The position numbers and the translations under genes are program-made. This document shows, piece by piece, positions 14,410-58,406 of a stretch of DNA of 64,000 bases. The stretch is from Candidatus Woesebacteria bacterium (lineage in GTDB: Bacteria; Patescibacteriota; Microgenomatia; UBA1400; UBA12028): positions 5,558 through 69,557 of the forward strand of contig JAGOVC010000001.1 of assembly GCA_018060955.1 (NCBI GenBank). Reading direction: 5' to 3'. Below the pieces are notes generated by a model that was not told the origin of the DNA, ran no database searches, and saw only the letters and a program-made list of their open reading frames with translations. The first letter of the stretch is position 1, and each line of letters begins with the position of its first letter.

Positions 14410-14413
14410 TGAT

Positions 14414-24394: not shown

Positions 24395-24729
24395 GATTAC
24401 TTCAGATTGTTTCAGTATTGTTTGGTCTATTCATGATGTATACCGTGCGTATTCATCATCGAAAACAGCATATTGATAGCATGGAATATGGGATTTGGAT
24501 GGGACTTTGGGGAGTTTTTATTTTCTTGGCAATCTTCCCACAAACGGTGAATGGTGTCGTTCAAACTCTCAACATTGCGAGGGTATTTGATCTCCTTGTT
24601 ATTATTTCCTTGATGATCGTAGTATTTCTTACGTTTCTCAATCGAATTGAGCAAAAGCGAATGGATAAAAAAATAGAGCAGCTGGTTCGAAAGAAAGCTA
24701 TCGATGACACTAAAAAAGCCGCTGTTTAG
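24391..24729 (+). CDS. DUF2304-like small membrane protein, often partnered with DPM1-like GT2 enzymes.
   Basis: About 112 aa with three hydrophobic segments and a basic C-terminal tail (KRMDKKIEQLVRKKAIDDTKKAAV). Starting at the ATG at 24391 gives an ATGA overlap. The ORF-track start is 24376. Confidence 0.6.
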   Translation: MRLLQIVSVLFGLFMMYTVRIHHRKQHIDSMEYGIWMGLWGVFIFLAIFPQTVNGVVQTLNIARVFDLLVIISLMIVVFLTFLNRIEQKRMDKKIEQLVRKKAIDDTKKAAV

Positions 24730-25480: not shown

Positions 25481-25483
25481 TGT

Positions 25484-26431
25484 ATGAAATTGAATAAAAA
25501 GAATATTGTTGTTACTGGAGGCGCGGGGTTTTTAGGAACCAATGTGGTGGCAGAACTGATCAAGCATGGAGCTGATCCTAAGAAAATTGTTGTTCCTCGC
25601 TCAAAAGATTTTGATCTACGTGAAAAAGAGGTTTGTGCCAGGGTAGTGACAGGGATGGATATTGTTATCCATTTGGCAGCTAACGTCGGTGGAATTGGAT
25701 ATAACCAACAGAATCCAGGTACTCTCTTTTACGATAATCTGCTGATGGGTGTCCATTTAATGGAAGAGGCGCGAAAAGCAGGAGTATCAAAGTTTGTTGG
25801 GGTTGGGACGATCTGTGCCTATCCAAAACACACTCCAGTTCCATTTAAAGAAGAGGAACTTTGGAATGGATATCCGGAAGAAACAAATGCACCCTATGGT
25901 TTAGCCAAGAAGATGATGCTTGTTCAAGCTCAAGCCTATAGAGCACAGTATGGCTTTAATTCCATCTATTTACTTCCAGTGAATTTATACGGTCCACAAG
26001 ATAACTTTAATCCGAATTCAAGTCATGTAATACCAGCGCTCATTAAGAAATTTGTGGATGCTGTTGAGAAAAAAAGTCCGGAAGTGATTGTCTGGGGTAC
26101 CGGCAAACCAACCCGAGAGTTTTTATTTGTGCAGGATGCCGCTCGCGCAATCGTCTTGGCAACTGAGAAGTATGACAAAGCGGATCCCGTTAATATCGGT
26201 AGTTCTTTTGAAATTAGTATCTACGATTTGGCGCACCTCGTCGGAAAGTTAACACAGTTTCATGGTGAGATACGGTTCGATTCTTCAAAGCCTGATGGAC
26301 AACCGCGACGCAAACTGGATGTGACACGGGCAAAAAAAGAATTCGATTTTGAGTCAGAAATCAACTTCGAGGAGGGTTTGAAATCCACAATCGAATGGTA
26401 TCTTGAACATTACTCACGCTTGAGCAAATAG
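25484..26431 (+). CDS. fcl: GDP-L-fucose synthase-like (GDP-4-keto-6-deoxy-D-mannose 3,5-epimerase/4-reductase family). It could instead be a ColC-type GDP-L-colitose synthase.
   Basis: [92 protein letters not shown] and [16 protein letters not shown] are highly characteristic Fcl-family motifs. Confidence 0.8.
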
Positions 26432-29327: not shown

Positions 29328-29344
29328 GGGAGTTAGTATATCGT

Positions 29345-38579: not shown

Positions 38580-39388
38580 AGAAAACTAAAGTCTCAATAG
38601 TCACACCTAGCTACAACCAAGGTGAATTTATTCAAGACACTTTACAGAGTGTTCTTGCTCAGGTGGATGGTTCGTTTGAACTCGAATACATCATTCTAGA
38701 TTCTGTTTCAATGGATGATACAAAGCTGATAATTGAAAAATATCTTCCAAAACTGAGGCGGGCTGGGGTTGGCGTGACCTTTATATCAAAGAAGGATAAA
38801 GGGCAGACCAATGCCATCAATAATGGGCTGTCACTGGCGACTGGACAACTGTATACGTACTTAAACTCGGACGATTTTTATGAACCAGATGTGCTGCGAA
38901 AAGTTGTGAAGTACTTCGAGCAAAATTCTCAGATTCAGTGGGCATTTGGAGGCTGGAATTACGTTAACCGGGTGGGGAAAATCTATTCCGTCATTCAACC
39001 CTCGCTATTCTCATATAACAAGTTATTAGACTATTGTACGATAGGTCAACCGAGTTGCTTTTTTCGTAGCACAGTTTATCAAGAAGTAGGTCCGTTTGAT
39101 GAATCGCTGCAGTTAGGGATGGATTATGAGTATTGGTTACGATTGTCCCAGCACTACCCAGCAGGTGTTATCCCAGAGGTCATTTCAAACATGCGTTATT
39201 ACGGGGGAACGAAGAGTGCATCGAAGGCAAGTCAGCACTTAGTGGAAGCCTATAAGTTAGCTACACGATACACAGCACCGCTATCCTTCAAACGATTGGT
39301 GCAATTTTTCTTCTTCCTTCGTGGTTATGCAGTTATCCTTTTAGGAATTGATATCACACGACGGATTGAACGTAAAGAAATTACCTAG
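38576..39388 (+). CDS. Family 2 glycosyltransferase; paralog set C.
   Basis: VSIVTPSYNQGEFIQDTLQSVLAQ...YLNSDDFY. ATGA overlap. Confidence 0.8.
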   Translation: MKKTKVSIVTPSYNQGEFIQDTLQSVLAQVDGSFELEYIILDSVSMDDTKLIIEKYLPKLRRAGVGVTFISKKDKGQTNAINNGLSLATGQLYTYLNSDDFYEPDVLRKVVKYFEQNSQIQWAFGGWNYVNRVGKIYSVIQPSLFSYNKLLDYCTIGQPSCFFRSTVYQEVGPFDESLQLGMDYEYWLRLSQHYPAGVIPEVISNMRYYGGTKSASKASQHLVEAYKLATRYTAPLSFKRLVQFFFFLRGYAVILLGIDITRRIERKEIT

Positions 39389-41246
39389 CTTCAAAAAAGT
39401 TTTCATACCACTTTGAAAGCATGAAGAATTTCCACAGTTGCGCGGAATAATCGGCAACGCCCTGCTGATGATAAGCGTACATTTTCTTCGTGGTATCAAA
39501 GTTTAAAACTTCATACATGGGGTGATTGGAATTCTGAAAGGTTGCATCAAACTGCGGACGTAATGTCGATTTCATCCACTCATTCACTGGCAGTACAAAT
39601 CCCCGCTTGGGTAGATTTCGAATTGAGGGCGGAATTAAGTCGCTACATGCCTCTTTTAGAATCCACTTCGTTTCGTTATTGTGAAGTTTAAAATGTAGCG
39701 GCAGTGTGGCAGCAAACTCTACAACTCTATAATCTAGAAGAGGTGATCTGCCTTCCAACGCCCACTGCATACTTGCAATGTCCATTTTAGTCATTAGACC
39801 ATCGGGCAAAATGGTTGATAAATCCATGGTAAGAACTCGACTAATAGTATCTTCAGAGTTAGTGGGCAAATGTGAGCGGATTTCTGTATCCAAATGATTT
39901 GTCGCATCATTCCAAAGATCATTCATGTCAATTCCATTGGTATATCCACGTGCATATAGGCTATATCCATCTAGTGGCTGTTGTCCAAGCAAATGGGAAA
40001 CTCGAAGTATTCGTTGCAGAAGCGGATGGTGTAATGCCTGATCTGAAAACGGTCGTAAAATAGTATGTAGCAAACTTGCTGGAAGTCGAAGTGCTTGCAT
40101 GCGATTAATGAAGGCTAGAGTGGTATGGTTGCTGTACGCAAAAAAACTTTCATCACCCCCATCCCCGTTAAGTGCAACGGTTACATGCTTGCGTGCGAGT
40201 TGGCTAACAAAATAGGAGGGGATCGCGGAGGAATCTCCAAATGGTTCATCGTACGCATTTACTAGTGTTTTAATTAGATCGCTTGTTACTTTGGGCTTAA
40301 TTTCAAGTTCCGTGTGTTCTGTGTGGTGAAATTCGCTGGATAATTTTGCATCTGCACGCTCGTCCATCCCCCAGCGACTAGCACCGACTGTAAAGGTGCG
40401 AACCGGCTGAGTGCTTTGTTTGCTCATGATTCCAGTTACCACGCATGAATCAATTCCACCGGACAAGAAAGAGCCTAACGGGACATCTGCGATCATACGT
40501 AACGAGACCGACGATTCAAGTAAGCTACGCAGTGTCTCTTTGGATTCATCAATGGAAAGTGTTGAATTCGGATTTACGGTGACAGACCAGTATTGTTTAA
40601 TGGTGAGTTTTTTATTTTTCAGAGTTAAATAATGACCAGGTGGGAGCTTGAATATATCCTTAAATCCCGTCTTGGGAGAGGGGACAAAACCCCAATACAT
40701 ATAAGATGAAATTGCATCTTTATCTACCACTTTGGGAACTTCAGGCTGAGTGAAGAGTGCTTTAATTTCGGAAGCAAAAATGAACACATCAGCAGAGAGA
40801 AAGTACTTAAATGGTTTTTTACCTAATCTGTCCCGAGCTGCGAAAAGAGTTTGTTCTTTTCTATCAAAGATGGCAAACGCAAACATTCCATTAAAATATT
40901 GAACGCATTTTTCCTTGTAGTGTGCATACATTGCTAAAATGACTTCGGTGTCTGACTGTGAGTGGAAGCGATACCCTTTTGACACCAATCGGCTGCGAAG
41001 CTCTGAATAGTTGTAGATTTCCCCGTTAAAGGTAATCCAATAGCGTTTGGAGTCATAGCTCATTGGCTGGTGACCTTTCGGCGAAAGGTCAATAATTGCG
41101 AGCCGTCGCTGACCGAATCCAAAGCTACCAAATGATTCAATACCGTCGTCATCAGGTCCCCGATGCGATAGACTATCCGTCATTCGTTGGATGTCTGCTG
41201 ACAACACCGTACCGTTAAAAACAACTTTCCCCGAAATTCCGCACAT
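39381..41246 (-). CDS. asnB: Asparagine synthetase B-type glutamine amidotransferase; a likely sugar amidotransferase in this context.
   Basis: N-terminal MCGISG, where Cys2 is the class II glutamine amidotransferase nucleophile, so the start is the Met directly before Cys at 41246, not 41252. The PP-loop SGGIDSCVV is present. Confidence 0.85.
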   Translation of the reverse strand: MCGISGKVVFNGTVLSADIQRMTDSLSHRGPDDDGIESFGSFGFGQRRLAIIDLSPKGHQPMSYDSKRYWITFNGEIYNYSELRSRLVSKGYRFHSQSDTEVILAMYAHYKEKCVQYFNGMFAFAIFDRKEQTLFAARDRLGKKPFKYFLSADVFIFASEIKALFTQPEVPKVVDKDAISSYMYWGFVPSPKTGFKDIFKLPPGHYLTLKNKKLTIKQYWSVTVNPNSTLSIDESKETLRSLLESSVSLRMIADVPLGSFLSGGIDSCVVTGIMSKQSTQPVRTFTVGASRWGMDERADAKLSSEFHHTEHTELEIKPKVTSDLIKTLVNAYDEPFGDSSAIPSYFVSQLARKHVTVALNGDGGDESFFAYSNHTTLAFINRMQALRLPASLLHTILRPFSDQALHHPLLQRILRVSHLLGQQPLDGYSLYARGYTNGIDMNDLWNDATNHLDTEIRSHLPTNSEDTISRVLTMDLSTILPDGLMTKMDIASMQWALEGRSPLLDYRVVEFAATLPLHFKLHNNETKWILKEACSDLIPPSIRNLPKRGFVLPVNEWMKSTLRPQFDATFQNSNHPMYEVLNFDTTKKMYAYHQQGVADYSAQLWKFFMLSKWYENFFEAR

Positions 41247-41309
41247 GTTCAAAGAGTATCATATTTTTTCGCGTAGCGAGCAGGAAAGAATGGTATATGC
41301 TACAAGCCT

Positions 41310-42845
41310 ATGGAATCGAGTGGCGTGATCAGACAAAAAACCTGGATCGGTGGAATTATTTGTCTTCTAGCTAGCATTGGTTTTGCTTTTTATCTCTTTT
41401 CAGCCAGCTTATCGAACGCATTTTCACCCATTGATGATCACGAACTAGTGTTGCACCTTAGGGGACAAGAGAGACTATCCATTTCACAAGTAACTGCATT
41501 GTGGCAACGAGATCTTCAAGCGACTGGAAGATTTCGTCCTCTGTATAACATTCTTCGTCCGCTTGAGCTACTTCTATGGGGAAACCATCTAAATCTCTGG
41601 TACTTGGCTCGCGTCATTCTCTTTAGTCTATCGATGTTCTTGTGCTGGTTACTTTTGAAACACGCGGTCGGGATGCTCTTTGCATCTCTAATCAGCTCAT
41701 GGTTTTTTACATTTGCGTTTTGGGCAGACATTATTGGCAGGCTGGGGCCATCAGAGAGTTACAGTCTATTTGGCTTGCTTTGTTGGGCTTGCGGTCTTTA
41801 TGGGCTCTATGCGCGGTCACAACAAACTTCTGCATGGAGTTGGTTATTACTTTCTATCGGAAGTATCATTGCGATTCTTACCAAAGAGAACATGCTGATC
41901 ATCGTGCTTCCAACCATCGGAATCACTTTGCTTAATCGGTCGAAAGTATATTCAAAAGGTCTGTTGTTTCTTCCAGTAATTTCTAGTTTCTTGGCATCAT
42001 TTTTCGTTATCCGATATTTAGTAAGATTATCCTCTGTAGTAGGAGTTGATGTGTACGGCAATAGTCTAGGTGTGTCTAGAGTAAGCCTGCTACTGGATGT
42101 ATTTTTAGATAAAACAGTTCTAGGATTGCTACTTGGAAGTGCGATTTTACTTTGGTTTTCGATTTCTGTTCCCTCACCAAGCTGGCGAAGAGATTTTTCA
42201 CATCTTTGTTGGGCATGGATAACCGCCGTCTCTTTACTCATATCCCAGAGTTTCTTTTACAACGGCCAATGGCCAACAAATATTCGCTATGATTTCCCAG
42301 GAATGTTCTACAAGCTGATCATTGTCGTTAGTGTGATATTTCTTCTAAAGCGGGTTGTGATTGATCGTTTGGATAACCAGTCGGCACGAATAGTAACGCT
42401 GGTGCTGACATGCTTCCTTTTTCTAGGAGTCATACGTCGTTCGCAGATTTGGGTTTTGCGTTCTCGAGTCCAAGCCTATCATCAACTGACACGATCTTTT
42501 GCTTCAGGATTACAAGCTATCAAAGCGACGAGCCCTTCAATGGATATCATTTTAGAATCAACCTCGATAAATGATCTTGAAATTATTCACGCCATCCAAG
42601 TATCTCTTCGACAAAAATATCTAGCCAATGCCATCTATCTTCGTTTACACCATCAAAATACTAATGAAGAAGGGGCATTGGGAGGGCAACTGTATACAAG
42701 CCTGTTACAAACTCAAAACGATGGTACGGATGTTTTTATGCCACTAGCTAAAAGAGAAGCTGTGAAACCTTGCATCTCGATTTTCCTTGGGCAAGAAACT
42801 CAAACGGAGTGCACACCATCCAGCATTATTGCAGTGACATGGTAG
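41310..42845 (+). CDS. Polytopic membrane protein, function unknown.
   Basis: 511 aa, with many helices in the N-terminal two-thirds and a soluble C-terminal domain. Confidence 0.7.
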   Translation: MESSGVIRQKTWIGGIICLLASIGFAFYLFSASLSNAFSPIDDHELVLHLRGQERLSISQVTALWQRDLQATGRFRPLYNILRPLELLLWGNHLNLWYLARVILFSLSMFLCWLLLKHAVGMLFASLISSWFFTFAFWADIIGRLGPSESYSLFGLLCWACGLYGLYARSQQTSAWSWLLLSIGSIIAILTKENMLIIVLPTIGITLLNRSKVYSKGLLFLPVISSFLASFFVIRYLVRLSSVVGVDVYGNSLGVSRVSLLLDVFLDKTVLGLLLGSAILLWFSISVPSPSWRRDFSHLCWAWITAVSLLISQSFFYNGQWPTNIRYDFPGMFYKLIIVVSVIFLLKRVVIDRLDNQSARIVTLVLTCFLFLGVIRRSQIWVLRSRVQAYHQLTRSFASGLQAIKATSPSMDIILESTSINDLEIIHAIQVSLRQKYLANAIYLRLHHQNTNEEGALGGQLYTSLLQTQNDGTDVFMPLAKREAVKPCISIFLGQETQTECTPSSIIAVTW

Positions 42846-42866: not shown

Positions 42867-43979
42867 ATGTTAAATCTTTCAAGAATTATAGATTTTCTCG
42901 ACACAAAAGTAGTAGAGAATGTGACACATACACATGCACAAAAATCATGTCTCCTTTCGTACATCACGTATCCATTTCTTTTCCCGTTTAAACCGCAACC
43001 TCATCAAAGTCACTGGCAAGTTAAAGCAATCGCACAAACAGTTCATGAACAGGGCTATCGCGTCGATGTTGTTAATTACGCAGCCAACTATCAGCTGAAA
43101 AGACACTATGACATGGTTATAGATATTCATCCCACAAAGAATAAGCCGTATTGGAATCACTTAAAGGAAAACGCCAAAAGAATCATGTTCTACACCGGAA
43201 GTTATCCAGACTTTCAAAATTCAGCCGAACGCAAACGACTTGAAGAGTTACATCATCGACGAGGTGTGCAGCTGCAGCCTAGAAGACAGGTAGAGGTACT
43301 AGAACGAAGCATTATTGAAAAGTTTCATACAATACTTCTTATCGGTAATGAGCAGACACAACGGACTTTCCCATCGACAAAAACACCATTGTATCTGTTA
43401 CCAAATACTGTGGATGAATCACTTGGTGCTCTCTCAACGCTTACAAAGAATCCAGCAAGCTTTCTTTTCTTAGGTAGTGGAGGACAAGTACATAAAGGCC
43501 TCGATTTAGTTCTAGAAGTTTTTAGTCGTCATCCTGAGCTAACACTGATGGTATGTAGCCCTTTTGCACGGGAAGAAGACTTTGTGAATGCATATCGGTT
43601 AGAGTTATATGACACAACGAACATTAGACCTCTAGGATTCATTGATCCTCATAGCGCAACTTTTAAAGAGAACGCAGCGAGCTGTGCCTGGATGATTTAT
43701 CCCTCAGCGTCAGAAGGGATGGCAGGAAGTGTGTTAACAGCAATGTCTGCTGGAATCATTCCCATTGTGAGTAAAGAATCTGGTGTTAGTCACGAAGTAG
43801 AGATACTTGATTCAAACAGTCTGGATTCAATCGAGAAAAAAGTGATGAAACTGAGTAAGTCTACGCAAAAAGAACTGCAAAAAAAGAGAGAAGAAATGAT
43901 GAATTCGTTAGATAAGTATTATTCTCAGCAAGCATTTATTACATCCCTACACAATGCATTGAGACAGCAGCTTACTTAA
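42867..43979 (+). CDS. GT-B fold (GT4-like) glycosyltransferase.
   Basis: FLFLGSGGQVHKGLDLVLEVF and IYPSASEGMAGSVLTAMSAGIIPIVSKESG. Confidence 0.7.
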   Translation: MLNLSRIIDFLDTKVVENVTHTHAQKSCLLSYITYPFLFPFKPQPHQSHWQVKAIAQTVHEQGYRVDVVNYAANYQLKRHYDMVIDIHPTKNKPYWNHLKENAKRIMFYTGSYPDFQNSAERKRLEELHHRRGVQLQPRRQVEVLERSIIEKFHTILLIGNEQTQRTFPSTKTPLYLLPNTVDESLGALSTLTKNPASFLFLGSGGQVHKGLDLVLEVFSRHPELTLMVCSPFAREEDFVNAYRLELYDTTNIRPLGFIDPHSATFKENAASCAWMIYPSASEGMAGSVLTAMSAGIIPIVSKESGVSHEVEILDSNSLDSIEKKVMKLSKSTQKELQKKREEMMNSLDKYYSQQAFITSLHNALRQQLT

Positions 43980-45193
43980 GCATTCTTAAAGATAGTATCC
44001 ATATCCTTTGCGTAGTGGGACCAAGAAATATTCTTTAGAACAAATGTATGACCAGCCTTGGCGATAGAATTTCGAAGTTTTGCGTCTGTAATAATTCTTT
44101 CAAGTTGCTTGGCTAAATGAGAGGGATTTTTGGGCTCAATAAAGAGAGCATTCTTTCCATCCGTAAGTACATCATGTGCACCAGCTGTTTTGCTTACAAG
44201 GACTGCACATCCACGTAAGCATGCCTCGAATACGGAAAGTCCCCAGGTTTGATTGTGATTTGGAAACACAAAGACATCTGCCTCCCGGTATTCACGTTCA
44301 AGCTCAGCCTCACTCACTTTTCCTAAGAACTTTACGTATGATCCTAGTCCATATTCTTTTACCAACTGCTCGATTAGCTGGAAATAACCCATATCTGGTG
44401 CAGGATCTCCAACGATATGAAAGTCTACGTTTTTCACTTTGTATTGATGAATGAGTATGTTTGCAGCTTCGATTAAGTCTTCGTATCGCCGGTGGCGAAA
44501 GAAAATATTGGTTGTGAGTAATTGGATTTTCTTGTGTTTCTTTTTGACTAGAAATTGTTTTAAATCATTTGGTATCGAGAGCCCGCTTTTAACAATCATG
44601 GCTGACTTTTTGAAATGGCGTTGGACAATATCTTTATTCCGCTCATCGAGAACTACGATGGTATCCATGTGTACGAGAGCCCGATTTGTACGAATCCTTT
44701 CGATCCATGCTAGAACCCTCATGAGAGTGGTTTGTGCATATTCTGATGCACCTTTCTCTTTCGCATCAATAAATGAAGGAGGATCGTTCATCATCCAGAC
44801 ATTTTTTACAGTAGGGAAACGTGACGTTAATCGGTACACGCCATGATCATGATAGTTGATCACATCGTACTGTTTCTTTTTGTGATGGATCTCAATTTGA
44901 TCGCCTATAGCTCGTACTTGCTGTAGCTGCACCCATTCATTTCGGATGAAGGCTCGGATTCGCTTCAAGATAGGATCTGACTGGTTATAGAATTCCTGCG
45001 AAATTTTGATTGGACGGGCTGCAATGACATTAACTTCATTGATAAATTCAGGAAAACATTTTGCTTTGTCGACACGATACGCAAAGATATCTACATGATG
45101 ACCTTGTTTTTGAAGGTAGCGTGCTTCTTCTAGGATTTGTCGAATTGAACCACCGTAGGTGTCAAGTTGCCAGATCACAAGCGCAATAGTCAT
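43976..45193 (-). CDS. GT4-family glycosyltransferase.
   Basis: N-terminal YGGSIRQILEEARYL, and C-terminal VFVFPNHNQTWGLSVFEACLRGCAVLVSK. Its stop overlaps the convergent GT stop. Confidence 0.8.
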   Translation of the reverse strand: MTIALVIWQLDTYGGSIRQILEEARYLQKQGHHVDIFAYRVDKAKCFPEFINEVNVIAARPIKISQEFYNQSDPILKRIRAFIRNEWVQLQQVRAIGDQIEIHHKKKQYDVINYHDHGVYRLTSRFPTVKNVWMMNDPPSFIDAKEKGASEYAQTTLMRVLAWIERIRTNRALVHMDTIVVLDERNKDIVQRHFKKSAMIVKSGLSIPNDLKQFLVKKKHKKIQLLTTNIFFRHRRYEDLIEAANILIHQYKVKNVDFHIVGDPAPDMGYFQLIEQLVKEYGLGSYVKFLGKVSEAELEREYREADVFVFPNHNQTWGLSVFEACLRGCAVLVSKTAGAHDVLTDGKNALFIEPKNPSHLAKQLERIITDAKLRNSIAKAGHTFVLKNISWSHYAKDMDTIFKNA

Positions 45194-45201
45194 ACTCTAG
45201 A

Positions 45202-46380
45202 TTATTCCGTTCTAAAGGCGCTAATTAGATACTCAATCTCGCTTGCGGTGAGCTCTGGATTATTTGCAAAGTAAAAACCTTGTGTAAAGACTAACCTTGA
45301 GACTGGGATGTCGTACGCTATGTCGATATGTTTCTTAAAAAATGGTTGATCTGCCATTACCCCTCCGACAATCGGCCGAACTTCGATTCCAAGTTTTTCA
45401 CATCGTGAACAGTACTCATCCTTTACTTGTTCAGATTTAAAGACTAATGGCATTGCAAAATTACTGACAAAATCCATCTTGATATCAAGCGGATACACGT
45501 CTGAACAAACCTCGTAGATTTTTAGAAAGGTTTGGAAATTTTCTTGTCGTTTTTGAATTGTTTCATTAATGAACTGCAGTTGGTACTTTCCTAGAAACCC
45601 TGTGATCTCATTTGGGCGCAGATTGTAGGCTAAATCGTAAAAGGTATATTTTGCAAAGAAGTCGGAGATTGCATGCTCTTTTCGAAGAGATTGTTGTTGT
45701 TTTTCACTTAAGTGCCGGTCCCACCCATGAGAACGAGCCATTCGTAACTGTTTATCCAGTTCTTTGTCATCGGTACACACCATTCCACCTTCGATTGCTG
45801 ACATGTGATGACCAACGAAGAATGAGAACGTTGAGGCAAAGCCAAAATTTCCCAGCTTTTTTCCTGAAGTTACACTTCCCATCGACTCACAGTTATCTTC
45901 TAGCAGCAAAATGCCCTCGCGAGTACAGTACTGTTTAATTTTTTTAAGATCATCTGAAAATCCCAACAGATTTGTAATAAATAAACAGTCTAAGGGATAC
46001 TTGGTATGGGCCTGCTCCAGCGTATGGCTTGAGACATTTAAGGTATCCAGCTCGATATCTACAGGGATGGGGTCTAATCCAAGCTGCATTAGGGGCATGA
46101 CATTTGTTGCCCAAGTGATTCCAGAGAAACCGACTTTCATACCTGGCTTAAGTTTCCCCATGTTTAATAATGCCTGAATTAAGGCTAAGTTCGCAGAACT
46201 GCCACTGTTAAAGAGAATGGAGTATTTTCTACCTTGCCAAGCGGAGAACTCTGACTCAAAGGAAGCACATTGGGCTCCTATCGAGAGTTGCTTTGCATTC
46301 TGAATGAAATCGCACAGTGCGTTTTTTGTCTCCGTTTCATTATAGAAAGAAGATTTGATCAATTTAATTTTATAATCCAT
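45202..46380 (-). CDS. colD: PMP-dependent NDP-4-keto-6-deoxyhexose 3-dehydratase of the ColD/E1 (DdhC) type within the DegT/DnrJ/EryC1 fold. The catalytic Lys is replaced by His.
   Basis: 392 aa. NSGSSANLALIQALL and LLEDNCESMG are present. The segment STFSFFVGHHMSAIEGG places His191-His192 where aminotransferases carry the PLP lysine. The genuine aminotransferase at 50817 has [16 protein letters not shown] in the same place. RSHGWDR follows. The size and motifs match ColD as I recall it. Confidence 0.8.
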   Translation of the reverse strand: MDYKIKLIKSSFYNETETKNALCDFIQNAKQLSIGAQCASFESEFSAWQGRKYSILFNSGSSANLALIQALLNMGKLKPGMKVGFSGITWATNVMPLMQLGLDPIPVDIELDTLNVSSHTLEQAHTKYPLDCLFITNLLGFSDDLKKIKQYCTREGILLLEDNCESMGSVTSGKKLGNFGFASTFSFFVGHHMSAIEGGMVCTDDKELDKQLRMARSHGWDRHLSEKQQQSLRKEHAISDFFAKYTFYDLAYNLRPNEITGFLGKYQLQFINETIQKRQENFQTFLKIYEVCSDVYPLDIKMDFVSNFAMPLVFKSEQVKDEYCSRCEKLGIEVRPIVGGVMADQPFFKKHIDIAYDIPVSRLVFTQGFYFANNPELTASEIEYLISAFRTE

Positions 46381-46388
46381 GAAAGCCC

Positions 46389-47771
46389 TTACTTTGTTCG
46401 AAAAGATAACTCTTTAAAAGAAATAGTCCGAGTGACGAATAAAAGCAAGAGGTAAATTAGTCCCATAAAGAATGCAGCAAAGATCCAGTTGGGTTTAAGT
46501 AGTAGCGCTACCAGAGCAGAAACGGTAATACACAGTGCTGGAGCAACAATTGCACGTAGTGGAAGTGAGTGCCCAACAAAATGCCGAAGGAAGAAAAATC
46601 CAATGAGTTCACACAGAAGTGTGGCTAGTGCCGCTCCTTCAACTCCGAATACAGGAATTAACAAGAGATTTAATCCAATATTGAGAATTGTGAGAAAAGC
46701 AAGCACTTTGGTATGGATTTTTTCTTTTCTTCCGGTGTACATAAAATACGACAGCGGTGCATTCAAATACAACACTATAATTGTCAATCCAAAAAGCTGG
46801 AGAACAGGTGCTGCGCTGGCATAGTCAGAGCCAAATGCTGTTAACATCACTTCTTTTGCAAAAAGAAGACAACAGGCAGCAATGTAAAACGCCACGACGG
46901 ATAAGTATCGAGTGGCCAAGAATAGTGAACGGGTGAGCTTTTCATCTTCCTTATCCGCGTAGAGTTTGGTCAATGTCGGAACGGAGACTGCAAGAATAAT
47001 TCCAGGAAGAATTACAGCCGCATCCATCAATCGATACGCTGTACTGTACGGAGCAACCGCAGCGACTCCCAGTAAATGACGAATGATTAACATGTCGACA
47101 CGAAAATATAAGATTCCAAAGACACTTAACATGAAAAGTGGGAGTGATTTTGAAATGACCTGGACTGACTTTTTTAGGTCAAATTTCGGAGGTTTGAAAC
47201 CTCCTGTCCAGATATTTGACAAGGCTATCGCAACGATTTTTCCGATAATGAACAGGACAAATACCATCAGGAGTTTACCTCCCAGTAGAAGCACTGCAAT
47301 TCCACCCACATAGGCTACTGCTTTTTCACTGCCATCAATGATTGCGGTCAAATGGAACCGATCTCTAGCAGAGAGAAACATTTTATTAAGTTGCAGATAT
47401 CCGTCCAGGAGAAAGTACACATAGGCCAAAAGAAACTCTAAACTGACAAAACGATCGATAAAGAAAACGTAGATGAACAATAAAATACTCACTGGGATTG
47501 TTAATAGGATCCGTGTGCCCAGCAAAAGCTGTCGTTCTTTCTCGAAATCTTCAGGATTGGTGCTCCAGTGCCGTAAAAAATAGGTCGGAATGCCTAATTC
47601 AATAAAAAGATTGACAATGACTAAAGTGGAGAAGATGTAACTGTATACTCCAAACTCAAATTGGCTTGTGGCCTTAATGAGTACGACCGTAAAGACAAAC
47701 CCTAAAATGTTTGAGACAATCTGATAGACCGTTTGGACACCTGCGTTGCGTACAATAAGCTGTTTGTTCAT
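46389..47771 (-). CDS. wzx: Wzx-type flippase (MOP/PST family).
   Basis: 460 aa with about 12 TM segments. The N-terminus VRNAGVQTVYQIVSNILGFVFTVVLIKA...FGVYSYIFS is typical. Confidence 0.8.
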   Translation of the reverse strand: MNKQLIVRNAGVQTVYQIVSNILGFVFTVVLIKATSQFEFGVYSYIFSTLVIVNLFIELGIPTYFLRHWSTNPEDFEKERQLLLGTRILLTIPVSILLFIYVFFIDRFVSLEFLLAYVYFLLDGYLQLNKMFLSARDRFHLTAIIDGSEKAVAYVGGIAVLLLGGKLLMVFVLFIIGKIVAIALSNIWTGGFKPPKFDLKKSVQVISKSLPLFMLSVFGILYFRVDMLIIRHLLGVAAVAPYSTAYRLMDAAVILPGIILAVSVPTLTKLYADKEDEKLTRSLFLATRYLSVVAFYIAACCLLFAKEVMLTAFGSDYASAAPVLQLFGLTIIVLYLNAPLSYFMYTGRKEKIHTKVLAFLTILNIGLNLLLIPVFGVEGAALATLLCELIGFFFLRHFVGHSLPLRAIVAPALCITVSALVALLLKPNWIFAAFFMGLIYLLLLFVTRTISFKELSFRTK

Positions 47772-49167: not shown

Positions 49168-50166
49168 ATGAAGTCTATCGGCATCGTAGGAGTAGGATAT
49201 TGGGGGCCAAATTATGCTCGAATTCTTTCTGCGATGGACAACATACATTTCTCCTGGTGCGCTGACCTAAATGCGAATGCTCTTTCCAAAATGCAAAAAA
49301 ATTATCCTGATGTGAAGGTAACAACCTCAGTATCAGATCTTTTGAATGATGAAAGCCTAGATGCAGTGATCATCGTTACTCCGGCTCAGACTCATTTTGA
49401 ACTTGTCAAGCAATTTTTAATTGCTGGAAAAGATGTCTTAGTTGAAAAGCCCCTTACCACAACATCCAAAGATGGAGCAGAACTAGTAGCTTTAGCAAAG
49501 AAACATAAGCGGATTCTCATGGTGGATCATACGTTTGTCTTCAATCGCTCTGTGCAAGCTCTTAAAGCTGCAATCGATGCAGGGAGCCTAGGGAAACTAC
49601 TTTATGCGCATGGTCAATACAATGCGCTTGGCCCAATCCGTTACGATGTATCCGCAATGTGGGATTTGCCACACTTGATCTATGTGGCTCAATACTTGTT
49701 CGGTGCACAAGCAAAACGAGTGTCTGCGGTTGGGAAATCCTACTATCAGAAGGATAAAGAAGACGTTGTTTTCCTGACGATGGAATTTCCAAATAAAATT
49801 CTCTTTAATCTCTCGTGCTCCTGGATTGATCCAGTTAAAGTTCGAAAGCTGACATTAGTTGGTGATAAGAAAATGGCATCTTTCGACGACATGCTGTCGG
49901 AGAAACTTACTTTTTTTGACAAGGGTGTGCAAACGCAAACGGATCCAAATTTTGCAAAGTTACAGTTAGTCGTACGCAATGGCGATATCACCACTCCATA
50001 CATTCCTCCCAATGAGCCGTTAAAGGATGCAGTTCTCTGCTTTCTCTCTGCATTAGAATCCAGAAAACTTGAACAGTCTACTGCTTTGGATGGTGTCAAA
50101 TTAGTTAGAGTCCTAGAAGCTGCACAAGAATCGTTATCACATTCTGGGGCTAGTATCGAAATATAA
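49168..50166 (+). CDS. Gfo/Idh/MocA-family NAD(P)-dependent oxidoreductase (WbpB-like sugar 3-dehydrogenase candidate).
   Basis: IGIVGVGYWGPNYARIL and the EKP signature (VLVEKPLTTT). Confidence 0.8.
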   Translation: MKSIGIVGVGYWGPNYARILSAMDNIHFSWCADLNANALSKMQKNYPDVKVTTSVSDLLNDESLDAVIIVTPAQTHFELVKQFLIAGKDVLVEKPLTTTSKDGAELVALAKKHKRILMVDHTFVFNRSVQALKAAIDAGSLGKLLYAHGQYNALGPIRYDVSAMWDLPHLIYVAQYLFGAQAKRVSAVGKSYYQKDKEDVVFLTMEFPNKILFNLSCSWIDPVKVRKLTLVGDKKMASFDDMLSEKLTFFDKGVQTQTDPNFAKLQLVVRNGDITTPYIPPNEPLKDAVLCFLSALESRKLEQSTALDGVKLVRVLEAAQESLSHSGASIEI

Positions 50167-50170
50167 CCAT

Positions 50171-50839
50171 ATGGACTCAGTAATTTATCAAAACGTTGTG
50201 ATCGGAAAGGGAGCCGTTCTTGAAGAGGGAGTAGTGATCGGGCGGCCACCGCATGGCAAAAAAGATGGGGAACTACCAACCATCATTGGAGAAAATGCAG
50301 TCATTCGAGCCTACACCATTATTTGTGCAGGTGTAACAATTGGCAACAATTTCCAAACCGGACCGCATGTGTTTATTCGTGAACAAAACACAATTGGAGA
50401 CAATGTCTGTATTTGGGCGAATGCTGTAATCAACTATGACAACCATATAGGTAATGATGTTCGACTCCATGTTGGATCATTTATTGAGAAGACCAAAATT
50501 GGCAATCATGTCTTTTTCGGTCCACATGCCGTGTGTACGGATGATCCACACCCGGTAATGCCTCCTGATTATTCTCAATGTTGGAAGGGTGCAACGATTG
50601 GTGACGGAGCGATCATTGGCGCAAACAGCACAATCTTGCCACATGTCACTATTGGGAATGGCGCTGTTATTGGAGCTGGTAGCGTGGTTACTAAACCTAT
50701 CCCTGAATTTACTGTGGCAGTGGGTAACCCTGCAAAAGTGATGAAGTTTGTAGAAGAAATTGTCTGCTCACGTTGTGGAAAGAAACATAAACCATATGAA
50801 CACTACAGGAGTACCTATGCAAATGATTCCATTCGTTGA
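50171..50839 (+). CDS. Hexapeptide-repeat N-acetyltransferase (WbpD/PglD-like candidate).
   Basis: Tandem [LIV]G hexapeptides ([15 protein letters not shown]...[31 protein letters not shown]). There is a C-terminal [14 protein letters not shown] tail. Confidence 0.8.
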
Positions 50840-51929
50840 TTTAAAGGCACAGTACCAAACCATAAAGAAAGACATGGATCAGGCTATTCTTGATCTAGTA
50901 GGATCAACTCAATTTATACTTGGCAGTGATGTGGCAGCTTTCGAACAAGAATTCTCAGCTTATTGCTCAGTGAAGCATACCGTTGCCGTCTCATCTGGAA
51001 CTGAAGCGCTTATATTAGCGTTGCGGGCACTGGAAATTGGACCAGGTGACGAAGTGATTGTCCCTGCAAACACCTTCATTGCAACTGCTCTGGCTGTATC
51101 GTATGTAGGAGCAAAACCAGTTTTAGTAGATGCGGATGATCAAAACTACAACATGGATCCAGAACATGTAGTCCGTGCCATTACATCTCAGACAAAAGCA
51201 ATCATGCCAGTCCATTTATATGGTCAGCCAGCAGATATGACACCTCTGCTTAAAATTGCAAAAGAACACAAGCTGTACGTCATTGAGGATGCATGTCAAG
51301 CTCATGGGGCTGAGTACAAAGGTAAACGAGTTGGAGGAATCGGAGATATTGCTGCATTTAGCTTTTATCCCGGAAAGAACTTGGGAGCCTATGGGGACGG
51401 TGGTGCGGTCACGACCAACAACAAGAAACTGTTTGACCGGGTTACACTTTTGCACAATTATGGCCAGAAGGTAAAGTACCATCACGAAGTCAAAGGAACG
51501 AACAGCAGACTCGATACAATCCAGGCAGCAGTCTTACGTGTAAAGTTACCACATCTTGATGCTTGGAACTCCAAACGACAAGAAATTGCACAGCAGTATG
51601 CTCAAGGGTTGGCAAACCTTCCGATCACTCTTCCGGCCATCGATAAAAATCGCACCCATGTGTTTCATATTTATGCGATTATGACGACCAAACGCGACAA
51701 GCTGCAACAACACCTCCATGAAAAAGGGATTAGCGCTCAGATCCATTATCCAGTCCCAATTCATTTACAAAAGGCGTACGCAGAGCTACAGCACGGCAAA
51801 GGGGACTTTCCGGTGAGTGAATATCTGGCCAGCCATGAATTAAGTTTACCAATGTATGCAGAAATGACAGAAAAGCAGGTTCACACTGTGATTGAAGGGA
51901 TTCGTTCATTCTTTTCAGCAAATGCGTAA
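50817..51929 (+). CDS. DegT/DnrJ/EryC1/StrS-family PLP-dependent sugar aminotransferase (WbpE-like candidate).
   Basis: AGGAG 6 nt upstream of the ATG at 50817. [14 protein letters not shown], and [18 protein letters not shown] with the Schiff-base Lys intact. Confidence 0.8.
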
Positions 51930-56572: not shown

Positions 56573-58384
56573 CTATCGATAGAGTCGATAGTGCATATTC
56601 TCAAAAACTTTTGTTCTAGTTTCTGTAACTTCCATCGGCATTTCTTTGTTTTCAAGAATATAGCTAACCTTTGAATCTCTCCCACACGCTGTGTAACAAA
56701 CTTCAACCTGAGCATGAAGGACATTAGCAATGCGATGTTGCAACTCCTGAGTATTCGTTTGGATCCCAACAACCGATGTGTGTGAAGGGATGTGTTCAAC
56801 GACGTCTCGAAGCGCTGGATCACTCACGATCCAATCTTGCTGAACTCCTACAAATTGGGATGTGAGAAAAAAGTAAAAAGGAGACAGAAATCCTAGTACG
56901 AGCATCGCTCCTATAATGGCACGTGGCAAGGCTTTCCATTCTTTTGAAAAAGTGAACAGACAAAGCGGAACTATTAAAAACAATGGACGCAATAATTTTG
57001 TGAATGCGAGATCATCGGCATCTGCACCGGGAGTTCGCGCAAAGTAGATCCAGAGTGGGAACAGCAAGAGGATTGTGAATAACCAAGGATTGGATAGTTT
57101 CTTTTTGAAAAAAGCGAGTGTAATAGTACCGATTCCCAAGAAACCCAGGTATTTCCAAAATTCCAATTTATTAACAGATGCATAGGCAAAACGCGAAGCC
57201 GCTGATTCGCTAATCGAAAGATCTAAATAGACGACCCCCCAAGAATGGAGTGGTCGAAGGATAGGAAGGTTTTTCCCTACTGCCCCTGCCAGAATCAGCA
57301 AAGTAAAAAATAATCCAATCAGCATATAGAGAACAGTTCGTTGTCTGGATGATAGCAATCGGAACAGATAAAAAACTCCAGTTATAACTCCAAAAACAAG
57401 AAACGCTAGACAAAAAGCTCGGTTTATTAACCATAAACTTAGTGTACTAAATATCGCCAGCAGCAAAACGTTTCGAAAAGTTGACAGGCTTGTAGGCGTT
57501 TTTTTCAAGAGATTTCGTAATAAGTCCTTTTCGTTTACCAACGACAGTTGAACCAGTAGAGAAAGCACTACAAAGAAGGTAAGACCATGCCAGGTAAGAC
57601 CAGCGTATTCAAACAGAATTGGAGTATGTAACTGTGGAAATGAGAAACCGCGAAGGACATTGTCACTAAATGAATCGAATAACAAGAGACTGGGCCCCAG
57701 GATAAAACCTACTCCGATGAAAACACTACTAGAAAAGTCTGAGACTGAAAAATATTTGGCTAGCAACTTAGAAAGAACGAACGGTGCAGGAATAAACAAA
57801 CTTAACTTGATAATATCTAGCGATTTTTCAACACTCAAATTCGTTACTGCTTTAAGAGCAATGACTGGAAAGTATAGTCCGACATGATATCCGTCAATCT
57901 TGCTACCAATTCGATAGGGCTCCAATAACGGGTAGGTTGGGGCTTCAAAGAATAGTTTGATATTCGCGTGATGATAGTATTCGTCATGTAACCCGTTCTG
58001 GTACGTGAGGTTGTAGAGGAAGAAAGACCCCACCAGAGTGACAAAGAGTACCACCATCAAAAACAAGTTTGGTTTTTTGAGTGCAGATACGAGTCTCTTT
58101 CCAATCAGAAGATATCCTCCTATACTCAAGGTTATAAACACACAAGTGATTGCTTGAATAACAAATAGTGGTTTTGGAAGTATCCGTAGCAAAACTTCAA
58201 CGATTATTACGAATGCCGAAACAGAGAGGTAGGGGAAGGCAAAGCGAAAGAGTGAGTTACGGACCCAAGGGAGAAGTAACGATACTCCACCTAGGGCTAA
58301 GATTGTAAGGACTGCATAAAATCCGTCTACAACGAAATGGGGGAAGATAACTGAATAATGCGACAGCAGTGCATCCATAGCCAA
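56573..58384 (-). CDS. Large polytopic membrane protein, function unknown (GT-C-like candidate).
   Basis: 603 aa with at least 12 helices and a soluble C-terminal domain. Confidence 0.7.
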   Translation of the reverse strand: MAMDALLSHYSVIFPHFVVDGFYAVLTILALGGVSLLLPWVRNSLFRFAFPYLSVSAFVIIVEVLLRILPKPLFVIQAITCVFITLSIGGYLLIGKRLVSALKKPNLFLMVVLFVTLVGSFFLYNLTYQNGLHDEYYHHANIKLFFEAPTYPLLEPYRIGSKIDGYHVGLYFPVIALKAVTNLSVEKSLDIIKLSLFIPAPFVLSKLLAKYFSVSDFSSSVFIGVGFILGPSLLLFDSFSDNVLRGFSFPQLHTPILFEYAGLTWHGLTFFVVLSLLVQLSLVNEKDLLRNLLKKTPTSLSTFRNVLLLAIFSTLSLWLINRAFCLAFLVFGVITGVFYLFRLLSSRQRTVLYMLIGLFFTLLILAGAVGKNLPILRPLHSWGVVYLDLSISESAASRFAYASVNKLEFWKYLGFLGIGTITLAFFKKKLSNPWLFTILLLFPLWIYFARTPGADADDLAFTKLLRPLFLIVPLCLFTFSKEWKALPRAIIGAMLVLGFLSPFYFFLTSQFVGVQQDWIVSDPALRDVVEHIPSHTSVVGIQTNTQELQHRIANVLHAQVEVCYTACGRDSKVSYILENKEMPMEVTETRTKVFENMHYRLYR

Positions 58385-58406
58385 AGTCTACGACCTAAAG
58401 CCGATT

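What the first reader, a model, noticed from the sequence alone, without database searches (positions are those of the whole stretch)
45202..46380. A ColD/E1-type 3-dehydratase with His-His in place of the PLP lysine suggests a 3,6-dideoxyhexose (colitose-like) branch.
This protein has the DegT-fold motifs NSGSSANLALIQALL, LLEDNCESMG and RSHGWDR. At the position of the Schiff-base lysine it has FSFFVGHHMSAIEGG, with His191-His192. The bona fide aminotransferase at 50817 in the same window has [16 protein letters not shown] there. Replacement of Lys by His is the defining feature of the PMP-dependent 3-dehydratases ColD and E1 (DdhC). The protein's size, about 390 aa with no C-terminal Fe-S extension, fits ColD better than E1. 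It sits in a minus-strand operon with a Wzx flippase (46389-47771) and a GT4 (43976-45193). Colitose and related 3,6-dideoxyhexoses are classically known from Gram-negative O-antigens. Finding this chemistry next to GT-C-rich machinery is notable.
Basis: partly seen in the sequence, partly recalled or inferred. Interest (0 to 1): 0.75.

Follow-up and report, generated by a model that had tools for sequence, protein, structure and literature searches.

The report
ColD-type sugar 3-dehydratase in a Woesebacterium
This gene in an uncultured Candidatus Woesebacteria genome encodes an enzyme of the ColD type, which removes the 3-hydroxyl from an activated sugar on the way to rare 3,6-dideoxy sugars such as colitose; it is a divergent but otherwise ordinary member of a large, uncharacterised family that public databases label as an aminotransferase.

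Summary
ORF 45202-46380 (-) encodes a 392-aa DegT-fold protein. Its His191-His192 sits exactly where aminotransferases carry the Schiff-base lysine. His191 aligns with ColD His188, with E1 His220, and with the Lys of the window's own aminotransferase.

ColD is the best match by both sequence and fold. The E1 iron-sulfur cysteine motif is absent. The His-His pair is invariant in all relatives examined.

Identity to E. coli ColD is only 31-33%, so this is a separate clade. That clade is present in at least 583 species-representative genomes, mostly CPR bacteria, plus DPANN archaea and some cultured bacteria.

Gene context supports a GDP-mannose-derived substrate:
- 34 of 86 related loci have a true gmd within 10 kb.
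- 51 of 86 have an Fcl-family epimerase/reductase.
- The commonest layout is a tight gmd, colD-like, fcl-family operon.

The window has such an Fcl-family gene (25484-26431) but no gmd or manC. The final sugar, colitose or a stereoisomer, is inferred rather than shown. A conserved, tightly coupled GT4 gene downstream is unexplained.

Verdict: a new, divergent member of a known enzyme kind, of moderate interest.

The parts
45202..46380 (-). ColD-type (His-type, Fe-S-free) DegT-fold NDP-hexose 3-dehydratase, 392 aa. NCBI record MBP9699691.1, annotated there as 'DegT/DnrJ/EryC1/StrS family aminotransferase'.
   Evidence: Pfam PF01041 at 2e-54. Best PDB sequence match is ColD 2gms, E 7e-52 over the full length. 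AF2 model pLDDT 90.5. The Foldseek top 12 hits are all ColD chains, TM 0.87-0.91. Organism and accession.
45805..45810 (-). Codons for His191-His192. His191 occupies the position of the aminotransferase Schiff-base Lys and of ColD His188 / E1 His220, the catalytic acid/base.
   Evidence: Translation and alignment. The ColD mutant chains H188K and H188N fix which His is residue 188. Invariant in 121/121 and 82/82 relatives.
46389..47771 (-). Wzx-type polysaccharide flippase, first gene of the wzx, colD-like, GT4 unit.
   Evidence: PF01943, PF13440 and MurJ hits. 8-nt gap to the dehydratase start. The same wzx, colD-like, GT4 order occurs in L002.
43976..45193 (-). GT4 glycosyltransferase (405 aa) starting 8 nt after the dehydratase stop. 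A conserved partner in this subclade; donor and acceptor unknown.
   Evidence: PF00534, PF13692 and PF13524 hits. Orthologs at 38-51% identity lie immediately downstream of the ColD-like gene in L002, L003 and L010, and one at 37% in L061. Gap sequence.
25484..26431 (+). Fcl-family SDR (315 aa), the candidate GDP-4-keto-(3,)6-deoxymannose epimerase/4-reductase that would finish the pathway. It could play a ColC-like role, an Fcl role, or both.
   Evidence: NCBIfam Fcl model 278 bits, below the cutoff of 500; E. coli ColC scores 304 and E. coli Fcl 551. E about 1e-60 to solved GDP-fucose synthases. 56-67% identical to SDRs next to gmd and ColD-like genes in L002, L006 and L008, and 59% to the one in L016. 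Catalytic S/T107, C109, Y136, K140 and H179 are kept.

Best explanation
The gene encodes a ColD-type, PMP-dependent nucleotide-sugar 3-dehydratase from a divergent clade. The proposed mechanism follows ColD. PMP forms a ketimine with the C4 keto group of GDP-4-keto-6-deoxy-D-mannose. His191 abstracts the PMP C4' proton, and the C3 hydroxyl is expelled. Hydrolysis then releases GDP-4-keto-3,6-dideoxy-D-mannose and ammonia, and PMP is regenerated from PLP with L-glutamate. No iron-sulfur cluster or reductase partner is involved. An Fcl-family epimerase/reductase, most likely the one at 25484-26431, would convert the product to a GDP-3,6-dideoxy-L-hexose such as GDP-L-colitose. That sugar would enter a Wzx-flipped surface glycan, possibly through the tightly coupled GT4 encoded directly downstream. 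What is shown: the fold, the His-for-Lys replacement, the absence of the E1 Cys motif, and the family-wide linkage to gmd and fcl-family genes. What is inferred: the substrate in this particular genome, the glutamate-dependent turnover, the stereochemistry of the final sugar, and the role of the GT4.
For: ColD is the best solved relative by sequence (E 7e-52, residues 12-386 on 12-386) and by fold (TM about 0.9 for the top 12 hits). His191 aligns with ColD H188, E1 H220 and the Lys of a true aminotransferase, and is invariant in relatives. Residues shared with ColD are invariant: D162, S186, E197, R222, N253, R255, E333 and R335. The E1 insertion CYCAPGCDNTC is absent. Of 86 related loci, 34 have a Gmd within 10 kb, 51 have an Fcl-family SDR and 57 have either. 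The commonest layout is gmd, about 20 bp, colD-like, about 40 bp, fcl-family. The two Gmd neighbours scored against NCBIfam pass the cutoff (535 and 573 bits against 415). GT11, the family of the E. coli O55 colitosyltransferase gene, is adjacent in five loci. The window's GT4-coupled subclade is nested among Gmd-linked members. Locus L061 combines the GT4 partner, a window-type SDR and a Gmd. The window itself carries an Fcl-family SDR, a second enzyme that needs the Gmd product.
Against: Identity to E. coli ColD is only 31-33%, about the same as to E1 at 30%. Characterised ColD-type enzymes are 62-67% identical to each other (PMC10440746). No gmd, manC or manB lies in the 64-kb window, or within 10 kb in the closest GT4-coupled relatives L002, L003 and L010. 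The window-type SDR is not a ColC ortholog (31% to ColC, 36% to Fcl). In L072 that SDR type sits next to gmd while a different Fcl-family SDR abuts the ColD-like gene, so it may be a plain Fcl. ColD Ser187 is Gly190 here. No member of this clade has been studied biochemically, as far as my searches show.
Confidence: 0.75

Rival explanations
1. The chemistry is the same but the substrate differs. In the GT4-coupled subclade (window, L002, L003, L010) the enzyme would deoxygenate another nucleotide-activated keto sugar. Candidates are a GDP-heptose as in Campylobacter jejuni, a UDP- or dTDP-4-keto-6-deoxyhexose, or an intermediate of the neighbouring Gfo / aminotransferase / acetyltransferase branch. 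The adjacent GT4 would then use the product.
For: No gmd lies in the window or within 10 kb in L002, L003 and L010. The GT4 gene is conserved directly downstream with gaps of 0 to 8 nt. In L010 the ColD-like gene lies on the same strand as, and directly after, the Gfo, acetyltransferase and DegT genes. ColD relatives are known to accept GDP-6-deoxy-4-keto-heptose (PMC10440746). L003 carries a distant Gmd-like 4,6-dehydratase (193 bits) and an RmlD-like SDR instead of a canonical Gmd.
Against: The subclade is nested among Gmd-linked members at 54-63% identity, with the same invariant active-site residues. L061 has the GT4 partner together with a Gmd and a window-type SDR. The window and L002 both carry the Fcl-family SDR, which itself needs the Gmd product. 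The Gfo plus Lys-DegT pair is near a ColD-like gene in only 4 of 86 loci, against 57 of 86 for Gmd or Fcl-family genes.
Confidence: 0.14
2. It is an E1 / RfbH / DdhC-type CDP-6-deoxy-4-hexulose 3-dehydrase that works with an E3 reductase to make CDP-linked abequose, paratose or tyvelose-type sugars. JGI annotates several homologs this way.
For: The best NCBIfam hit is the RfbH model. JGI names homologs 'CDP-6-deoxy-D-xylo-4-hexulose-3-dehydrase' or 'E1'. The catalytic His is shared with E1.
Against: The RfbH score of 182.6 bits is far below the cutoff of 423, and E. coli ColD itself scores higher on that model (263 bits). The E1 Cys-rich insertion is absent, and only one of the four ligand positions is a Cys; ColD has that Cys too. 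E1 is a weaker match than ColD by sequence and by fold. Pfam found no nucleotidyltransferase or ferredoxin-reductase-type gene in the window. Neighbours in relatives are GDP-mannose pathway genes.
Confidence: 0.03
3. It is a genuine sugar aminotransferase, as in the NCBI annotation, that transfers an amino group to a keto sugar.
For: It has the DegT fold and a Pfam DegT_DnrJ_EryC1 hit. NCBI names it 'DegT/DnrJ/EryC1/StrS family aminotransferase'. The His-type enzyme SpnQ shows side aminotransferase activity under some conditions (PMC8987622).
Against: There is no lysine at or near the Schiff-base position, and His-His is invariant there. All characterised enzymes with this substitution are 3-dehydratases, and wild-type ColD and E1 show no transaminase activity (PMC8987622). 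PGAP gives the biochemically proven E. coli O55 ColD the same generic name, so the label carries no functional information.
Confidence: 0.02

Closest known systems
ColD / WbdK, GDP-4-keto-6-deoxy-D-mannose 3-dehydratase of E. coli O55 and Yersinia pseudotuberculosis (PDB 2gms, 3b8x, 2r0t, 3gr9)
   Same: Same fold (TM about 0.9) and nearly the same length (392 against 388 aa). His-His sits at the Lys position. Shared residues include D162/D159, S186/S183, R222/R219, E333/E329 and R335/R331. Neither has an Fe-S motif. Both families are linked to gmd and an Fcl-family reductase, and in some loci to a GT11 transferase.
   Different: Identity is only 31-33%, so this is a separate clade. It has Gly190 where ColD has Ser187, and family-specific conserved cysteines C38, C152 and C202 that ColD lacks. 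In this genome it is coupled to wzx and a GT4 rather than to gmd, colC or manC. The host is a CPR bacterium, a group I know as lacking LPS, and not a Gram-negative O-antigen producer.
C. jejuni HS:5 / HS:11 GDP-6-deoxy-4-keto-heptose C3-dehydratases
   Same: PLP- and L-glutamate-dependent, GDP-linked C3 deoxygenation (PMC10440746). They show that ColD-type enzymes can serve other GDP-sugars.
   Different: Those enzymes are 62-67% identical to E. coli ColD, so they belong to the canonical clade. They act on heptoses and pair with a separate C5-epimerase and C4-reductase. No heptose pathway genes were seen here.
E1 (DdhC / RfbH / AscC), CDP-6-deoxy-L-threo-D-glycero-4-hexulose 3-dehydrase (PDB 3bcx)
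   Same: DegT fold, with a catalytic His replacing the Lys, and PMP-dependent elimination of the C3 hydroxyl.
   Different: E1 has a [2Fe-2S] cluster bound by a Cys-rich insertion and needs the E3 reductase. The insertion is absent here. E1 is 437 aa, 30% identical, and acts on a CDP-linked substrate.
ColC (GDP-L-colitose synthase) and Fcl (GDP-L-fucose synthase), compared with the SDR at 25484-26431
   Same: Same SDR family with the same catalytic residues: S/T107, C109, Y136, K140 and H179. Like ColC, it scores below threshold on NCBI's Fcl model.
   Different: It belongs to a deep separate clade, 31% identical to ColC and 36% to Fcl. Whether it makes fucose, colitose or both cannot be decided from sequence.

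Membership tests
ColD-type 3-dehydratases (His-type, Fe-S-free, PLP/PMP plus glutamate) | Fold-type I / DegT aminotransferase fold | tested here: met
   PF01041 at 2e-54. AF2 model pLDDT 90.5. Foldseek TM 0.87-0.91 to ColD chains.
ColD-type 3-dehydratases (His-type, Fe-S-free, PLP/PMP plus glutamate) | Catalytic His in place of the Schiff-base Lys | tested here: met
   H191 aligns with ColD H188, E1 H220 and the Lys of the window's own DegT. Invariant in 121/121 and 82/82 relatives.
ColD-type 3-dehydratases (His-type, Fe-S-free, PLP/PMP plus glutamate) | Cofactor- and diphosphate-binding residues conserved (ColD D159, S183, R219, E329, R331; the roles are from my own knowledge of the ColD structures) | tested here: met
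   D162, S186, R222, E333 and R335 align with these residues and are invariant in the family.
ColD-type 3-dehydratases (His-type, Fe-S-free, PLP/PMP plus glutamate) | Absence of the [2Fe-2S] four-Cys motif | tested here: met
   The E1 insertion CYCAPGCDNTC has no counterpart. Only C164 matches a ligand position, and ColD has that Cys too. The review states that E1 and SpnQ carry the motif and ColD does not.
ColD-type 3-dehydratases (His-type, Fe-S-free, PLP/PMP plus glutamate) | Substrate is GDP-4-keto-6-deoxy-D-mannose (the gmd product) | tested here: inconclusive
   Family-wide linkage to gmd (34/86 loci) and to Fcl-family genes (51/86), often as a three-gene operon. There is no gmd in this window. 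No biochemistry.
ColD-type 3-dehydratases (His-type, Fe-S-free, PLP/PMP plus glutamate) | Close sequence relationship to characterised ColD enzymes, which are 62-67% identical to each other | tested here: inconclusive
   ColD is the best solved relative, but identity is only 31-33%, similar to the distance to E1. It is a distinct clade, and orthology is not established.
ColD-type 3-dehydratases (His-type, Fe-S-free, PLP/PMP plus glutamate) | Glutamate-dependent PMP regeneration with release of ammonia | not testable with these tools
   Needs an enzyme assay.
E1 / RfbH / DdhC CDP-hexulose 3-dehydrase | [2Fe-2S] motif C-X57-C-X1-C-X7-C (spacing from my own knowledge; presence of a four-Cys motif from PMC8987622) | tested here: not met
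   The insertion and three of the four Cys are absent.
E1 / RfbH / DdhC CDP-hexulose 3-dehydrase | Score above the NCBIfam RfbH equivalog cutoff (423 bits) | tested here: not met
   182.6 bits.
E1 / RfbH / DdhC CDP-hexulose 3-dehydrase | Company of CDP-glucose pathway genes and an E3 reductase | tested here: not met
   No nucleotidyltransferase, CDP-glucose 4,6-dehydratase or ferredoxin-reductase-type hit among the window ORFs of at least 150 aa. Not surveyed in the related loci.
DegT-family sugar aminotransferases (functional sense) | Schiff-base Lys after the small residue in the S-F-x-x-x-K motif | tested here: not met
   His191 occupies the position, with no Lys between residues 176 and 205.
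Complete GDP-L-colitose pathway (ManC/ManB, Gmd, ColD, ColC) | Gmd encoded with the dehydratase | tested here: not met
   The best TIGR01472 score among the window SDRs is about 54 bits against a cutoff of 415. tblastn with three Gmd proteins finds only 24-26% SDR paralogs. The rest of the MAG could not be searched.
Complete GDP-L-colitose pathway (ManC/ManB, Gmd, ColD, ColC) | ColC-type C5-epimerase/C4-reductase | tested here: inconclusive
   An Fcl-family SDR at 25484-26431 is catalytically complete. It is neither a ColC ortholog nor a threshold-passing Fcl.

The most novel reading that the evidence does not exclude
The wzx, colD-like, GT4 subclade (window, L002, L003, L010) has left the gmd operon because it now deoxygenates a different activated keto sugar. 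The tightly coupled GT4 would use the product directly. CPR bacteria would then carry a deoxy sugar that has not yet been described. A linked point is that the family's conserved cysteines (C38, C152, C164, C202) could form a metal or redox site unlike that of E1.
Probability: 0.1. Interest if true: 0.6.

Novelty: new member of a known kind. Interest (0 to 1): 0.35.

Why it matters
The finding predicts that many CPR bacteria and DPANN archaea can make a GDP-linked 3,6-dideoxyhexose for their surface glycans. These are tiny episymbionts, and CPR bacteria lack classical LPS as far as I know. Colitose-type sugars are so far associated with Gram-negative O-antigens, and no paper in the searched library links colitose with these lineages. 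Surface glycans are plausible factors in host attachment for such organisms.

There is also an annotation problem. The whole clade, present in at least 583 species-representative genomes, is labelled either 'aminotransferase' (NCBI) or 'CDP-... E1' (JGI). NCBI's pipeline even names the proven E. coli O55 ColD generically. A dedicated profile model would correct thousands of records. The chemistry itself is not new.

Tried and rejected
- Contig ends. I tried to read the 5.5 kb and 1.8 kb of the contig outside the window, to look for gmd or manC, by exact-protein look-ups of two left-end ORFs. Both failed, probably because the public gene calls use other start codons.
- ColD and E1 structure papers. 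PMC2533848 and PMC2782820 are not held. Residue roles therefore rest on the review PMC8987622 and on my own knowledge.
- ColC orthology of the SDR at 25484-26431. Rejected: it is 31% identical to ColC and 36% to Fcl, and it falls in a separate deep clade.
- A role for the ColD-like enzyme in the neighbouring Gfo / acetyltransferase / Lys-DegT branch. Unlikely: that pair is near a ColD-like gene in only 4 of 86 loci.
- The window NUDIX protein (14261-14872) as a GDP-mannose mannosyl hydrolase. No support: tblastn with E. coli Gmm found nothing, and the best NCBIfam hit is NudI at 47 bits.
- Spatial clustering of the conserved cysteines. Not possible, because the model coordinates are not exposed.
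- The GT4 partner. It has no informative relatives; the best are generic GT4 structures and an EpsE-like model far below cutoff.
Full report
**Observation**

The minus-strand ORF 45202-46380 is intact and encodes 392 aa. His191-His192 are encoded at 45805-45810. The comparison gene at 50760/50817-51929 is a normal Lys-type DegT aminotransferase (PF01041, 6e-130) with [10 protein letters not shown]. The coordinate 50817 is the start used in the public gene call. Wzx (46389-47771) and a GT4 (43976-45193) flank the gene on the same strand, each with an 8-nt gap. The contig is JAHZTO010000492.1 of GCA_020049755.1. NCBI assigns it to Candidatus Woesebacteria and calls the protein a 'DegT/DnrJ/EryC1/StrS family aminotransferase'.

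**What the protein is**

Among solved structures the best sequence matches are the ColD entries (2gms, E 7e-52, residues 12-386 aligned to 12-386). E1 follows at 6e-38 and true aminotransferases at 1e-22 or weaker. In that alignment FSFFVGHHMSAIEGG pairs with ColD FSSFYSHHIATMEGG. The ColD mutant chains (H188K 'SKH', H188N 'SNH') show that the first His is residue 188, so His191 corresponds to ColD His188.

A four-way MAFFT alignment puts His191, ColD His188, E1 His220 and the Lys of the window's own aminotransferase in one column. The nearest lysines in the query are K175 and K206. E1's Cys-rich insertion (CYCAPGCDNTC) has no counterpart in the query or in ColD. The review PMC8987622 states that E1 and SpnQ carry a four-Cys [2Fe-2S] motif that ColD lacks, and that the His-for-Lys change is what distinguishes 3-dehydratases from aminotransferases.

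An AlphaFold2 model (pLDDT 90.5, pTM 0.89) gives ColD chains as its 12 best Foldseek hits (TM 0.87-0.91). E1 comes next (0.81-0.87), then PseC, perosamine synthase and ArnB. His191 and His192 are invariant in 121/121 database homologs and in 82/82 ColD-like proteins from fetched loci. So are D162, S186, E197, R222, N253, R255, E333 and R335, all of which are identical in E. coli ColD.

**How far it is from ColD**

I retrieved the genuine ColD, ColC, Gmd, ManC, Gmm and the GT11 transferase, together with the colanic-acid Fcl, from E. coli O55:H7 CB9615. The query is 31.5% identical to ColD by BLASTP and 33% in the MAFFT alignment. It is 30% identical to E1, and ColD and E1 are themselves 33% identical. 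Characterised ColD-type enzymes are 62-67% identical to each other (PMC10440746).

The Woesebacteria protein therefore belongs to a distinct clade of His-type, Fe-S-free dehydratases and is not a ColD ortholog. NCBIfam has no ColD model. The RfbH model gives 183 bits for the query and 263 bits for E. coli ColD, against a cutoff of 423. PGAP names E. coli ColD only as a DegT-family aminotransferase.

**Distribution**

The word-indexed protein search found 7,938 homologs at E <= 1e-20. All named top hits are CPR/Patescibacteria. The best 80 (49-58% identity) cover the following groups:
- many CPR phyla;
- DPANN archaea (Woese-, Pace- and Nanoarchaeota);
- other bacteria, including Streptomyces sp. 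NPDC093261, Chitinophaga sp. SYP-B3965, Reichenbachiella, Bdellovibrio, Curvibacter and Chthoniobacter.

**Substrate, from gene context**

In 86 non-redundant loci I looked for pathway genes within 10 kb of the ColD-like gene:

| Gene within 10 kb | Loci (of 86) |
|---|---|
| Gmd | 34 |
| Fcl-family SDR | 51 |
| Either | 57 |
| Both | 28 |

The commonest layout is gmd, about 20 bp, colD-like, about 40 bp, fcl-family. Examples are L016, L022, L038, L058, L065, L067, L071 and L080-L082. The two Gmd neighbours that I scored with NCBIfam pass the equivalog cutoff (535 and 573 bits against 415). GT11, the family of the E. coli O55 gene annotated as alpha-1,2-fucosyltransferase, lies near the ColD-like gene in five loci. 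From my own knowledge that O55 gene is the colitosyltransferase WbgN. This is the gene set of the GDP-colitose pathway (Gmd, ColD, ColC; PMC8987622).

**The window itself**

No ORF of at least 150 aa in the window is a Gmd, a nucleotidyltransferase or a phosphomannomutase. I could not read the contig ends or the rest of the MAG.

The window does contain an Fcl-family SDR at 25484-26431. It scores 278 bits on the Fcl model, where the cutoff is 500, E. coli ColC scores 304 and E. coli Fcl scores 551. It matches solved GDP-fucose synthases at about 1e-60. It is 56-67% identical to the SDRs that sit beside gmd and/or ColD-like genes in L002, L006 and L008, and 59% identical to the one in L016. It keeps S/T107, C109, Y136, K140 and H179 in E. 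coli Fcl numbering. From my own knowledge, C109 and H179 are the epimerisation acid/base pair. Because this SDR also needs the Gmd product, a gmd elsewhere in the genome is the economical expectation.

The SDR's exact role is open. It is not a ColC ortholog (31% to ColC, 36% to Fcl) and it falls in a deep separate clade. In L072 an SDR of this clade sits next to gmd while a second Fcl-family SDR overlaps the ColD-like gene. In L016 the order is gmd, colD-like, then this SDR type as a single operon.

**The GT4 coupling**

The window, L002, L003 and L010 form a small clade nested among Gmd-linked members. In each, an orthologous GT4 of about 405 aa (38-51% identity) starts 0 to 8 nt after the dehydratase stop. 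L061 has the same pairing together with a window-type SDR 1.8 kb upstream and a Gmd 4.3 kb downstream. The GT4 has no informative characterised relative. It may transfer the dideoxyhexose, but this is not shown.

A rival reading is that this subclade has changed substrate. Its nesting within Gmd-linked members, L061, and the presence of the Fcl-family SDR all argue against that. The neighbouring Gfo / acetyltransferase / Lys-DegT genes co-occur with ColD-like genes in only 4 of 86 loci.

**Mechanism proposed**

The steps follow ColD as described in PMC8987622 and PMC10440746:
1. PMP forms a ketimine at C4 of GDP-4-keto-6-deoxy-D-mannose.
2. His191 abstracts the C4' proton, and the C3 hydroxyl leaves.
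3. Hydrolysis gives GDP-4-keto-3,6-dideoxy-D-mannose and ammonia.
4. L-glutamate regenerates PMP.

The fold, the catalytic His, the lack of an Fe-S motif and the family-level gmd linkage are shown here. Substrate use in this organism, glutamate dependence, the final sugar and the transferase are inferred.

**Novelty and score**

No paper in the searched library mentions colitose together with Patescibacteria, CPR, Saccharibacteria or DPANN. No structure exists for this clade. The chemistry and pathway logic are nevertheless those of a known enzyme kind, and the family is very common. I rate it a new, divergent member of a known kind, with interest 0.35. Its main value is the prediction of 3,6-dideoxyhexose surface glycans in CPR and DPANN organisms, and the correction of widespread misannotation.

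Noticed in passing
window 49168-51929 (+): Three consecutive genes look like a pathway for a 3-acetamido-3-deoxy sugar, similar to WbpB/WbpD/WbpE or GnnA/GnnB. They are a Gfo/Idh/MocA oxidoreductase (best NCBIfam hit the archaeal UDP-GlcNAc 3-dehydrogenase model, 147 bits), a hexapeptide N-acetyltransferase (best PDB relatives QdtC and WlbB), and a Lys-type DegT aminotransferase. An AsnB-type amidotransferase at 39381-41252 could amidate a uronic acid. The same set recurs in L002 and L010.
   Followed up: partly
window 23738-26431 (+): The Fcl-family SDR is the last gene of a GT2 (218 aa), DUF2304-like membrane protein (24376-24729, 54% identical to the PF10066 protein of L002), GT2 (258 aa), SDR unit that is syntenic with L002. 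From my own knowledge, a GT2 plus DUF2304 pair resembles the mycobacterial polyprenyl-phosphate sugar synthase PpgS/Rv3632, which feeds a GT-C enzyme. With at least five PMT_2 (GT-C) genes in the window, the deoxyhexose might be routed through a lipid-phosphate carrier to GT-C transferases acting outside the membrane.
   Followed up: partly
window 45202-46380 (-), residues C38, C152, C164, C202: The family has two invariant cysteines (C152, C164) and two nearly invariant ones (C38, C202). E. coli ColD shares only C164. They do not match the E1 Fe-S motif.
   Followed up: partly
L072 4575-11173 (Candidatus Saganbacteria): One locus carries gmd plus a window-type Fcl-family SDR as an adjacent pair, and 2.5 kb further on a second, E. 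coli-Fcl-like SDR that overlaps the start of the ColD-like gene. This suggests parallel GDP-fucose and GDP-colitose branches with separate reductases.
   Followed up: partly
L057, L070, L079 (DPANN archaea); L062 (Streptomyces); L068 (Chitinophaga): Proteins 51-57% identical to the Woesebacteria enzyme occur in DPANN archaea and in distant cultured bacteria. In L057 and L062 they come with gmd and fcl-family genes; in L079 only a gmd was found, and in L070 neither (its downstream flank is only 2 bases). This suggests horizontal spread of the cassette. The cultured strains would allow direct sugar analysis.
   Followed up: no
L014 7701-8867 (E. coli O55:H7 ColD) and database names: Public annotation is uninformative or wrong for this enzyme class. 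PGAP names the proven ColD a 'DegT/DnrJ/EryC1/StrS family aminotransferase'. JGI names CPR homologs 'CDP-4-dehydro-6-deoxyglucose reductase, E1'. NCBIfam has no ColD model.
   Followed up: yes
window 1057-2745, 10329-11867, 18586-20646, 21855-23642, 27666-29327, 29288-31620, 41310-42845, 56573-60092: About ten long ORFs (330-690 aa) in this glycosylation island have no Pfam hit at 1e-5. They are interleaved with GT2, GT4 and PMT_2 genes and may be divergent GT-C enzymes, polymerases or other membrane proteins.
   Followed up: no
window 14261-14872 (+): A NUDIX protein lies among the glycosyltransferase genes. A NUDIX gene also follows the ColD-like gene in L008, and E. coli O55 has the GDP-mannose mannosyl hydrolase Gmm next to gmd. 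The window protein shows no detectable similarity to E. coli Gmm, and its best hit is NudI at 47 bits.
   Followed up: partly
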